IMG/VR virus record: IMGVR_UViG_2874962485_000007
Origin: a virus
Lineage: Duplodnaviria > Heunggongvirae > Uroviricota > Caudoviricetes
DNA length: 21,382 nucleotides
Direction: 5' to 3' (one strand)
Positions 13,813-14,628 of the stretch are shown piece by piece (positions within the stretch are counted from its first letter, which is position 1; each line of letters opens with the position of its first letter). The notes below the pieces were generated by a model. It was not told where the DNA came from. It saw only the letters and a list, made by a program, of their open reading frames with translations, and did no database searches. The translations under genes and the position numbers were made by a program.

Positions 13813-13831
13813 GTAACGCTGCGAGCGTTAC
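13813..13831. repeat. 19-bp palindrome GTAACGC-N5-GCGTTAC, copy 1 (identical arms at 14005..14023 and 14212..14230)
   Basis: Perfect 7-bp inverted arms with a 5-bp spacer, 14 bp upstream of the YdaU-like start codon. Confidence 0.7.
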
Positions 13832-14004
13832 AAGGTGAAAACAAATGGCTTCAAACTGGATAAAGCTCGAGGTTATTACGCCGGATAAGCCGGAAATATT
13901 CAGGCTTGCTGAGATTCTGAATATTGATCCAGATGCCGCATTAGGGAAGGTTATTCGCTTCTGGGCATGGGCGGATCAACAAATGATAGACGGTAATGCA
14001 GATT

Positions 14005-14023
14005 GTAACGCTCGCGGCGTTAC
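14005..14023. repeat. 19-bp palindrome GTAACGC-N5-GCGTTAC, copy 2 (inside the YdaU-like ORF)
   Basis: Arms identical to copy 1; spacer differs (TCGCG). Confidence 0.7.
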
Positions 14024-14211
14024 AAAAAGTGCAATAGATCGCATCACTTTTATGTCTGGTTTTGCTGATGCGTTAATTCAGGTTGGATGGCTGGTCGAAA
14101 ATGACGGTGGGCTTTCTCTACCTAACTTTGAACGTCATAACGGAAAAAGCTCTAAAAAACGGGCGGTTACAAACGAGCGAGTAACAAAAATACGCGAACT
14201 GAAACGAAAAG

Positions 14212-14230
14212 GTAACGCTGCCAGCGTTAC
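14212..14230. repeat. 19-bp palindrome GTAACGC-N5-GCGTTAC, copy 3 (inside the YdaU-like ORF), with adjacent half-sites and A-rich tract
   Basis: Arms identical; spacer TGCCA. Neighbouring GGTTAC-N10-GTAAC (14165..14185), a lone GCGTTAC (14247..14253) and the A-rich stretch 14186..14210. Confidence 0.7.
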
Positions 14231-14628
14231 ACAAACGGATCAAAAAGCGTTACCAGTGGAAGAGGAAGAGGAAGATCTAAATACTGATCTCCCCCTAAAT
14301 CCCCCTCGCCAAAAACGAGCGTCTAAAAAATTCGAGCCGGAGGCTATTGAGCTGCCCGATTGGTTGCCGGAAACACTCTGGCATGAGTGGGTCCGGTTCA
14401 GACAGGCATTGCGAAAACCGATTCGAACGGAGCAGGGCGATACGGGAACTGGAAAAATTCCGTCAGCAGGGTTTTACACCTGAGCAGGTGATTCGACACA
14501 GCATCGCCAATGAATACCAGGGCCTGTTCGCGCCGAAAGGTGTTCGGCCTGAGACGTTGCTCCGACAGGTTAACACCGTCTCGTTGCCGGACAGTGCGAT
14601 CCCGCCAGGCTTCAGGGGGTAACGGACC

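What the first reader, a model, noticed from the sequence alone, without database searches (positions are those of the whole stretch)
13813..14253. Iteron-like palindromes with identical arms inside and just upstream of the YdaU-like replication gene: candidate prophage origin or autoregulatory sites
Three perfect copies of GTAACGC-N5-GCGTTAC (13813..13831, 14005..14023, 14212..14230) have identical 7-bp arms but different spacers. Additional half-sites (GGTTAC at 14165..14170, GTAAC at 14181..14185, GCGTTAC at 14247..14253) and an A-rich tract (14186..14210) lie alongside. Exact conservation of the arms with variable spacers, partly inside coding sequence, argues for selection at the DNA level. 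The arrangement recalls lambdoid origins embedded in the initiator (O) gene, here in a DUF1376/YdaU-like gene followed by a DnaC-like gene.
Basis: seen in the sequence. Interest (0 to 1): 0.65.

Follow-up and report, generated by a model that had tools for sequence, protein, structure and literature searches.

The report
Phage origin-like sites inside initiator gene
The three palindromes are real and are the local copies of a DNA element kept inside one widespread family of phage replication-initiator genes, most likely the sites where the initiator binds to start copying the phage genome; in this window the replication genes themselves are broken.

Summary
GTAACGC-N5-GCGTTAC occurs perfectly at 13813, 14005 and 14212 and nowhere else in the window (0 of 100 shuffles reach 3).

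- **DNA-level selection.** The same 19-bp palindrome sits at the same two places in homologous genes from Enterobacteria, Pseudomonas, Burkholderiales, Planctomycetes and Verrucomicrobia (64 and 59 of 78 representatives). Spacer length is fixed and spacer sequence is free. The linker site is read in all three frames. Synonymous codons are frozen (Val GTT 63/73, p = 2e-23). Arm variants change in concert at every site of a locus.
- **Larger element.** Extra half-sites lie 11-12 bp apart around the palindromes. A last half-site GCGTTACC (14247) abuts a polypurine, low-GC tract (14258-14275).
- **Likely reader.** The only constant partner is the gene's own N-terminal domain. It is not DUF1376/YdaU; only the C-terminal part matches YdaU. 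Downstream genes are helicases or helicase loaders.

My best reading is initiator-binding iterons of a gene-embedded phage origin, analogous to lambda ori. This is inferred, not tested. Here the initiator gene carries an 11-bp deletion and the DnaC-like gene a stop codon, so the element is a relic.

The parts
13813..13831 (.). Site 1: perfect palindrome GTAACGC-TGCGA-GCGTTAC. It lies upstream of the initiator ORF and ends 1 nt before the Shine-Dalgarno-like AAGGTG (13832-13837).
   Evidence: It is found at -32 to -44 in enterobacterial homologs only. In L011 the upstream cluster is a near copy of the site-2 cluster.
13993..13999 (+). Degenerate extra left half-site GTAATGC, 12 bp before site 2. 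It is a perfect GTAACGC in intact relatives.
   Evidence: It corresponds to a 4-codon insertion (NAEC) relative to non-enteric homologs.
14005..14023 (.). Site 2: perfect palindrome GTAACGC-TCGCG-GCGTTAC, inside the N-domain coding region (codons 54-60, CNARGVT).
   Evidence: Conserved at +148/+160 in 64 of 78 representatives. The encoded residues fall in a low-confidence loop, pLDDT below 50 for residues 50-57. Codon test.
14212..14230 (.). Site 3: perfect palindrome GTAACGC-TGCCA-GCGTTAC, in the linker-coding region (GNAASVT).
   Evidence: Conserved at +337 to +424 in 59 of 78 representatives, and read in all three frames (42/13/5). The linker is predicted disordered, residues 123-136.
14247..14254 (+). 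Orphan right half-site GCGTTACC (codes A-L-P), the last half-site before the polypurine tract.
   Evidence: In the ALP motif, Leu is TTA in 37 of 39 cases against a background of 0.14, and Ala is GCG in 39 of 39.
14258..14275 (+). Polypurine tract GGAAGAGGAAGAGGAAGA (codes EEEEE), followed by the AT-rich TCTAAATACTGATC (14276-14289). Candidate unwinding element.
   Evidence: A run of 14 or more purines at this place occurs in 55 of 78 representatives, against 0.011 expected. GC dips 15-22 points below the locus mean for about 40 nt. In most phyla the tract is (GAGAA)n.
13845..14622 (+). Replication-initiator gene, frameshifted here by an 11-bp deletion at 14435. The N-domain spans roughly 13845-14210, then the linker, then a YdaU/DnaT-like C-domain.
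   Evidence: The intact 262-aa form is L001:3014-3802. It matches phrog_2509 'replication initiation protein', and Pfam has no family for the N-domain.
14629..15375 (+). DnaC/IstB-like helicase-loader gene (ydaV), inactivated by a TAG at 14968-14970 in the Walker A motif.

Best explanation
The palindromes are iterons: double-stranded DNA sites read by the winged-helix-like N-terminal domain of the phage replication initiator encoded by the same gene. One monomer would bind each GTAACG half-site and a dimer each 19-bp palindrome.

The element has these parts:
- a cluster in the loop-coding region (site 2);
- a cluster in the linker-coding region (site 3), with extra half-sites 11-12 bp apart;
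- a terminal half-site GCGTTACC that abuts a polypurine, low-GC tract.

Together these would form a replication origin embedded in the initiator gene. Initiator bound at the two clusters, about 200 bp apart, would assemble a nucleoprotein complex. The adjacent GA-rich tract would melt. The variable C-terminal domain would bring in the helicase or helicase loader (here DnaC-like YdaV).

Site 1, upstream of the start codon and found only in enterics, is an added copy that may also give autoregulation. In this window the initiator and loader genes are pseudogenes, so the element is a relic usable only if a related initiator is supplied in trans.

What is shown: DNA-level constraint, co-evolution of the sites with the N-domain subfamily, and the replication-module context. 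What is inferred: binding by the N-domain, unwinding at the GA tract, and origin activity.
For: 1. **Not chance.** 3 sites against 0.09 expected.
2. **Deep conservation.** The palindrome is present at two fixed gene positions in 64 and 59 of 78 representatives sharing under 90% identity, from several phyla. There are almost no matches in the 2.5-kb flanks.
3. **DNA-level, not protein-level.**
   - Site 3 is read in three frames (GNAxSVT, VTxxALQ, SRxxRD).
   - At protein-aligned columns, Val is GTT in 63 of 73 cases (p = 2e-23) and Asn is AAC in 62 of 62.
   - The 7 GTG Val codons are exactly the 7 loci with His CAC, so a nonsynonymous change in one arm is matched by a synonymous change in the other.
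   - In 27 close relatives, 2 of 42 arm positions vary against 8 of 15 spacer positions.
4. **Read by a trans-acting factor.**
   - Every site of a locus shares the same arm variant: GTCACG, GTTGCG (9 copies in L041), CTAACG, and GTCCGC in epsilon15 and phiPSA1.
   - Classes differ among phages of the same host genus and follow the N-domain subfamily.
   - Residues 109 and 113 of a basic helix track the class.
5. **The N-domain is the only constant partner.** Upstream genes are unrelated. Downstream genes are DnaB-like helicases (10), lambda-P-like proteins (8), DnaC/IstB-like loaders (4) or primases. C-domains are swapped.
6. **Origin-like anatomy.**
   - Orphan half-sites lie 11-12 bp apart.
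   - A polypurine tract is present in 55 of 78 representatives, with a GC dip of 15-22 points.
   - Searching the half-site/GA junction in viral contigs returns this gene family in 76 of 80 loci.
7. **Protein model.** The AF2 model shows a helix-turn-helix plus beta-hairpin. Both site-coding stretches fall in low-confidence loops, where amino acids are free to follow the DNA.
Against: - There is no experimental evidence of binding, unwinding or replication for any member. I found no paper on it.
- The sites are split into two clusters about 190-260 bp apart, not a tandem array as in lambda.
- 14-19 of 78 representatives show no recognisable site; their half-sites may have diverged or may be absent.
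- The GA tract also encodes a charged linker, so part of its conservation could be at the protein level.
- The low-GC stretch is short, about 40 nt.
- The correlation between residues and half-site class is confounded by phylogeny.
- In this window the initiator and loader are pseudogenes, so no current function can be claimed for this copy.
Confidence: 0.6

Rival explanations
1. Autoregulatory operators only. Dimers of the initiator bind the palindromes to repress or block transcription or translation of their own gene, with no role as an origin.
For: - Perfect palindromes with a fixed spacer are typical operators of dimeric regulators.
- Site 1 ends 1 nt before the Shine-Dalgarno-like AAGGTG.
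- From general knowledge, iteron-plasmid Rep dimers autorepress through inverted repeats made of half-iterons.
- The co-evolution of sites with the N-domain fits this reading as well as the origin reading.
Against: - The universally conserved sites lie 150-420 bp inside the ORF, not at a promoter.
- No sigma-70-like promoter was found in 13000-14700.
- Site 1 is missing outside Enterobacteria.
- Orphan half-sites at regular 11-12 bp spacing and the abutting polypurine, low-GC tract have no obvious role in repression.
- The module context is initiator plus helicase or loader.
Confidence: 0.15
2. Nucleic-acid hairpins. The palindromes act as stem-loops in the mRNA (stability, processing, translation) or in single-stranded DNA (a primosome-assembly or priming signal, in keeping with the DnaT-like C-terminus).
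For: - Each site folds into a 7-10-bp hairpin of -11 to -15 kcal/mol, z about -3.
- Spacer variants include reverse-complement pairs (TGCCA/TGGCA at site 3, TGTGA/TCACA at site 1). This suggests the palindromes do extrude or template-switch in vivo.
- The C-terminal tail resembles DnaT.
Against: - The arm sequence, not just the pairing, is kept across phyla.
- One-sided arm changes give C-A, G-G or A-G mismatches, not wobble pairs.
- Orphan half-sites with no partner are conserved.
- All sites of a locus change to the same new sequence. Independent hairpins do not predict this.
- There is no Rfam match.
- The one terminator-like hit, on the minus strand at site 3, is not conserved.
Confidence: 0.07
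3. Sites for another protein: a host factor, or a neighbouring phage regulator such as the DicA-like repressor, the Cro-like protein or YdaT.
For: Several helix-turn-helix regulators are encoded just upstream (12650-13767).
Against: - The upstream genes are not conserved among loci that keep the sites; YdaT is present in 6 of 69.
- YdaT recognises TTGATTN6AATCAA (PMC9986795).
- Half-site classes differ among phages of one host genus: GTAACG against GTCCGC in E. coli/Salmonella; GTAACG, GTCACG and GTCCGC in Pseudomonas. This argues against a host factor.
Confidence: 0.05
4. Protein-level repeat (N-A-x-x-V-T) or chance.
For: Sites 2 and 3 are in the same frame and both encode NAxxVT. The motif recurs in homologs.
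Against: - Site 1 is untranslated.
- Site 3 is read in three frames.
- Synonymous positions are frozen.
- 0 of 100 shuffles reach 3 sites.
Confidence: 0.01

Closest known systems
Lambda ori and the O protein (and the 6-iteron origins of Stx phages 933W and P27)
   Same: - The origin lies inside the initiator gene, between the DNA-binding N-terminal part and the C-terminal part that interacts with the helicase loader.
- Iterons are 19-bp inverted repeats next to a low-stability region.
- Extra iterons add amino acids to the protein (PMC7466680). Here an extra half-site adds 4 codons (NAEC), and repeats such as NAKGNAKSNA appear in linkers.
- N-domain plus sites travel as one specificity module, while the C-domain stays with the loader gene.
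   Different: - The N-domain is not in the Phage_rep_O family; Pfam gives no hit.
- Sites form two clusters about 200 bp apart, plus orphan half-sites, not four tandem iterons.
- The low-stability region is a polypurine (GAGAA)n or (GAAGAG)n tract, not a 40-bp AT-rich block.
- Function is untested.
K-12 Rac prophage YdaU (DUF1376) and oriJ
   Same: - Same position in the module: ydaT, initiator, ydaV.
- The C-terminal 120 residues or so are shared.
- K-12 ydaU also has its own repeats in the linker: ATGTTCAAACA, three direct and one inverted, at L003 3327-3400.
   Different: - It has a different N-terminal domain (DUF1376) and no GTAACGC palindromes.
- Papers state that Rac has an origin called oriJ (PMC3945230). 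I could not verify where oriJ lies relative to ydaU.
Iteron-plasmid Rep systems (RepA, RepE, pi, TrfA type)
   Different: - There is no sequence similarity, and the fold similarity is not significant.
- The sites are inside the coding sequence.
- The element sits in phage replication modules with helicase or loader genes.
DnaA-trio element of bacterial oriC (general knowledge, not tested here)
   Same: A short-period repeat, here the pentamer GAGAA, lies directly next to the last initiator box, where the strands would open.
   Different: The period is 5, not 3, the initiator family is different, and no single-strand binding has been shown. This is an analogy only.

Membership tests
Lambda-type gene-embedded phage origin | Initiator-binding repeats located inside the initiator gene, between the parts coding for the N- and C-terminal domains | tested here: met
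   The site 3 cluster lies in the linker (predicted disordered, residues 123-136). Site 2 lies in a loop of the N-domain. The C-domain is swapped just after the tract.
Lambda-type gene-embedded phage origin | Several iterons of about 19 bp with dyad symmetry | tested here: met
   There are three 19-bp palindromes plus two extra half-sites in the window. However, they form two or three separated clusters, not one tandem array.
Lambda-type gene-embedded phage origin | Adjacent low-stability (AT-rich) region | tested here: inconclusive
   GC dips 15-22 points for about 40 nt, starting at the polypurine tract. The stretch is shorter than in lambda, differs in composition, and also codes for a charged linker.
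Lambda-type gene-embedded phage origin | Initiator belongs to the lambda O family (Pfam Phage_rep_O) | tested here: not met
   Pfam gives no hit up to E = 5. The only PHROG 'O-like' hit covers residues 76-236.
Lambda-type gene-embedded phage origin | Initiator binds the repeats and the fragment supports replication | not testable with these tools
   This needs binding assays and a replication assay.
YdaU / DUF1376 family | DUF1376 N-terminal domain | tested here: not met
   K-12 YdaU matches PF07120 (E = 2.7e-26). The window protein and its intact homolog do not.
YdaU / DUF1376 family | Shared C-terminal region with a DnaT-like tail | tested here: met
   The C-terminal 120 residues or so are nearly identical to K-12 YdaU. 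There is a weak DnaT tail match.
Winged-helix initiators of iteron plasmids | Winged-helix DNA-binding fold | tested here: inconclusive
YdaT / CII-type operator | Inverted repeat TTGATTN6AATCAA | tested here: not met
   The sequence is different (PMC9986795). The only near matches are at 13338 and 13764, outside the palindromes.
Known structured RNA or intrinsic terminator | Match to an Rfam model, or a hairpin followed by a T-run that is conserved | tested here: not met
   There is no Rfam match. The single minus-strand terminator-like hit at site 3 is not conserved in other loci.

The most novel reading that the evidence does not exclude
This family may carry a compact, readable origin code.
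- A few residues of one basic helix (positions 109 and 113) would set which GT-NNNN half-site is read. At least eight specificity classes were seen.
- The invariant (GAGAA)n polypurine tract that abuts the last half-site would be a dedicated strand-opening or single-strand-binding element, playing the part that DnaA-trios play in oriC.

If so, origins and their initiator specificity could be predicted from sequence alone for thousands of uncultured phages. The tract, lying exactly at the domain-swap boundary, would also be the junction at which replication modules are exchanged.
Probability: 0.25. Interest if true: 0.75.

Novelty: new variant of a known kind. Interest (0 to 1): 0.55.

Why it matters
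Origins are known by experiment for very few phages. This initiator N-domain has no Pfam family, yet it has 6,959 relatives at E <= 0.001 among the 50%-identity representatives. They include epsilon15, SPN1S, TL-2011b, Xanthomonas CP2 and prophages of Akkermansia and planctomycetes.

If the sites are its origin, several things follow:
- One sequence rule (two clusters of GT-NNNN half-sites in 6-N7-6 geometry, then ACC plus a GA tract) would locate the origin in all of these genomes.
- It would give a natural series of matched initiator and site specificities for studying protein-DNA co-evolution.
- It would explain odd conserved peptide motifs (NAxSVT, ALPEEE or ALPREEKRRE) as by-products of DNA constraints.

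For this window the practical point is smaller. It shows a Shigella-type, IS-ridden Rac-like prophage whose replication genes are dead but whose cis sites are intact.

Tried and rejected
- **Protein repeat or chance:** rejected.
- **YdaT, DicA-like or Cro-like binding:** rejected. The neighbouring genes are not conserved and the YdaT site is different (PMC9986795).
- **Host factor:** unlikely, because site classes differ within one host genus.
- **Known RNA family or terminator:** nothing found.
- **DnaA boxes near the element:** none.
- **Strict search for discriminating residues:** looking for alignment columns that separate all three main half-site classes gave nothing useful. A relaxed look picked out positions 109 and 113, but this is confounded by phylogeny.
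- **Helical phasing between site 2 and site 3:** from the offsets, the distances of about 189-264 bp fit no single phase, so I make no claim.
- **Plasmid search:** I looked for a minimal replicon carrying only this gene. Only two phage-sized circular records turned up, which is not decisive.
- **Literature searches:** oriJ, epsilon15 origin, the motif itself, replisome organizer with iterons, and DUF1376 all found no description of this element.
- **Half-sites at 14165 and 14181 and the A-rich tract:** not conserved beyond close relatives, so treated as incidental.

Full report
**1. The observation.** The window has exactly three matches to GTAACGC-N5-GCGTTAC, all perfect, at 13813, 14005 and 14212, even when two mismatches are allowed. 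The expected number is 0.09, and none of 100 dinucleotide-preserving shuffles reaches three. The spacers differ. Site 1 lies before the ORF, and an in-frame TGA at 13836 closes that frame. Sites 2 and 3 lie in the ORF that starts at 13845.

**2. Context.** The region is the early-right part of a defective Rac-like prophage. In order it holds:
- a DicA-like repressor (12650-13057, minus strand);
- a P22-Cro-like gene (13134-13361);
- a YdaT-family gene (13345-13767);
- the initiator gene (13845-14622);
- a DnaC/IstB-like gene (14629-15375);
- a DUF977 gene.

Compared with the intact gene of phage vB_EcoS-666R9 (L001, annotated 'DNA replication protein O'), the window gene has an 11-bp deletion at 14435. 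The loader gene has a TAG in its Walker A motif. The window begins with an IpaH-type E3 ligase gene and is full of insertion sequences, which points to a Shigella-type chromosome.

**3. The gene is only half YdaU.** Pfam finds no domain in the window protein or in its intact 262-aa homolog, whereas K-12 YdaU matches DUF1376 at residues 22-104. The two proteins share only the last 120 residues or so. K-12 ydaU has no GTAACGC palindrome, but it carries its own repeats in the linker: ATGTTCAAACA, three direct and one inverted. N-domain plus repeats therefore behave as one exchangeable module. PHROGs place the window type in phrog_2509, 'replication initiation protein'.

**4. Conservation across phyla.** I collected 154 loci that encode the N-domain from genomes and viral contigs. 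In 78 representatives sharing under 90% identity, the palindrome (up to 2 mismatches) is present as follows:
- at +148/+160 in 64 representatives;
- at +337 to +424 in 59 representatives.

These come from Enterobacteria, Pseudomonas, Burkholderiales, Planctomycetes and Verrucomicrobia including Akkermansia. The 2.5-kb flanks hold almost no matches. Spacer length is always 5 and spacer sequence is free. An unbiased scan for perfect 6-N7-6 inverted repeats recovers almost only these sites, and the half-site is usually the most frequent hexamer in the region.

**5. The constraint is on DNA.**
- Site 3 is read in three frames in different lineages, 42/13/5: GNAxSVT, VTxxALQ and SRxxRD.
- I chose columns from the protein alignment, not from the DNA. 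At these, the invariant Val is GTT in 63 of 73 cases against a background of 0.30 (p = 2e-23), and Asn is AAC in 62 of 62 (p = 6e-15).
- The seven GTG Val codons are exactly the seven loci where Asn is replaced by His (CAC), giving GTCACGC...GCGTGAC. A nonsynonymous change in one arm is thus matched by a synonymous change in the other.
- Among 27 distinct close relatives, 2 of 42 arm positions vary, against 8 of 15 spacer positions and 32 of 138 other third-codon positions.
- The AF2 model places the codons of both sites in low-confidence loops, so the protein tolerates whatever the DNA dictates.

**6. A trans-acting reader that co-evolves with the sites.** Within a locus all sites share the same arm variant:
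- GTCACG in L035, L038, L058, L063, L066, L067 and L071;
- GTTGCG (9 copies) in L041;
- CTAACG in L053;
- GTCCGC, in the same 19-bp geometry, in epsilon15 and phiPSA1.

Searching viral contigs for the junction ACCAGAGAAGAGAAGAGAAG gave 80 loci. Of these, 76 have the N-domain gene directly upstream, and 3 of the other 4 simply lack upstream sequence. At least eight half-site classes appear, each uniform within its locus. Classes differ among phages of one host genus, which argues against a host factor.

Upstream genes are unrelated among loci (YdaT in 6 of 69). Downstream genes are DnaB-like helicases, lambda-P-like proteins, DnaC/IstB-like loaders or primases. C-terminal domains are swapped. 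The N-domain is therefore the only constant partner.

In a basic helix (residues 103-122), K104, R106 and R112 are invariant. Residues 109 and 113 follow the half-site class. This is suggestive only, because clades and classes coincide.

**7. A larger anatomy.**
- Left half-sites repeat at 12-bp steps before the palindromes. Right half-sites repeat at 11-bp steps, or 17-23 bp, after them.
- The last right half-site, GCGTTACC, codes for A-L-P. Leu there is TTA in 37 of 39 cases against a background of 0.14, even in GC-rich hosts.
- A polypurine run of 14 or more nt directly follows in 55 of 78 representatives, against 0.011 expected. It is mostly (GAGAA)n, a period of 5 inside coding sequence that uses rare AGA Arg codons. 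In enterics it is (GAAGAG)n.
- GC falls 15-22 points below the locus mean for about 40 nt at this place.
- In the window these parts are the degenerate half-site at 13993-13999, the orphan half-site at 14247-14254, the tract at 14258-14275 and an AT-rich patch up to 14289.

**8. Interpretation.** The anatomy parallels lambda. [quoted passage not shown] Two iterons plus that region suffice for unwinding, and extra iterons lengthen the protein (PMC7466680). I therefore read the palindromes as iterons of a gene-embedded origin for a different, unnamed initiator family.

Binding, unwinding and replication are all inferred. No paper describing the element was found. The rivals stand as follows:
- **Autoregulation only.** Possible, especially for site 1, which ends next to the Shine-Dalgarno-like sequence and exists only in enterics. 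It does not explain sites deep in the ORF, the half-sites at regular 11-12 bp spacing or the GA tract. No promoter-like site is nearby.
- **Hairpins.** They can form, and reverse-complement spacer pairs hint that they do in vivo. But sequence conservation of the arms, non-wobble mismatches, orphan half-sites and concerted changes across sites all argue for duplex recognition.

**9. Limits.**
- The fold is only weakly winged-helix-like.
- Some representatives lack recognisable sites.
- The two clusters are about 190-260 bp apart with no fixed helical phase.
- The GA tract also encodes a charged linker.
- The copy in this window belongs to a dead module.

**10. Verdict.** The finding is real, and its DNA-level reading is correct. 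The origin idea is the best-supported explanation (about 0.6). The YdaU/DUF1376 label is wrong for the part that matters. The element is a new variant of a known kind. The family is large: 6,959 representatives at E <= 0.001.

Noticed in passing
window 14435 and 14968-14970: The initiator gene has an 11-bp deletion (GGGCGCTAACG, between GGGCG repeats) relative to intact homologs. The DnaC-like gene has a TAG replacing the Walker A lysine codon. The replication module is a pair of pseudogenes, while the cis sites are intact.
   Followed up: yes
L003 3327-3400 (K-12-type Rac ydaU): The DUF1376-type ydaU has its own repeats in the linker-coding region: ATGTTCAAACA, three direct and one inverted. 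This suggests the same iterons-in-the-linker design with another N-domain. It could be the Rac origin oriJ, which I could not verify.
   Followed up: partly
site 3 and site 1 in E. coli/Shigella relatives (L082-L102 etc.): Spacer variants come as reverse-complement pairs: TGCCA/TGGCA at site 3 and TGTGA/TCACA at site 1. Spacers vary more than other third-codon positions (8 of 15 against 32 of 138). This looks like spacer inversion by template switching at the palindromes.
   Followed up: partly
window 13338-13355 and 13764-13781: Two near matches (2 mismatches each) to the YdaT operator TTGATTN6AATCAA, at the ends of the Cro-like and YdaT genes. The first lies where the CP-933P operator OM was mapped (the end of ydaS). 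The count is not above chance: 10 of 100 shuffles give 3 or more.
   Followed up: partly
polypurine tract after the last half-site, e.g. L018, L047, L155 (epsilon15): The tract is a period-5 repeat (GAGAA)n inside coding sequence. It gives EKRRE-type peptides with rare AGA Arg codons even in hosts of 60-68% GC, and it sits exactly where C-terminal domains are swapped.
   Followed up: partly
L011 2371-2500 against 2621-2700: In the Pantoea sp. BAV 3049 locus L011, the upstream (site 1) cluster is a near-identical copy of about 30 nt of the site 2 cluster. Upstream sites in enterics therefore probably arose by duplication of internal ones.
   Followed up: no
window 1-1812, 3013-3831, 4844-5662, 8233-9111, 10205-11776, 19434-21035: An IpaH-type gene (type III secretion LRR domain plus NEL E3 ligase domain) at the window start, and at least five transposase genes (rve-type and IS66-type), break up the prophage. 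This is typical of Shigella.
   Followed up: no
window 16374-17060 and 17231-17443: A QueH (epoxyqueuosine reductase) gene lies inside the prophage, followed by a small ORF that looks Hok-like. The Hok-like call rests on its sequence only and was not tested.
   Followed up: no
L158 (NC_015459.1, Pusillimonas sp. T7-7 'plasmid', 41 kb): This circular record, filed as a plasmid, is phage-like (CII, NinB, Rha, then this initiator and a DnaC-like gene). It may be a phage-plasmid or a circular phage genome that replicates with this module.
   Followed up: no
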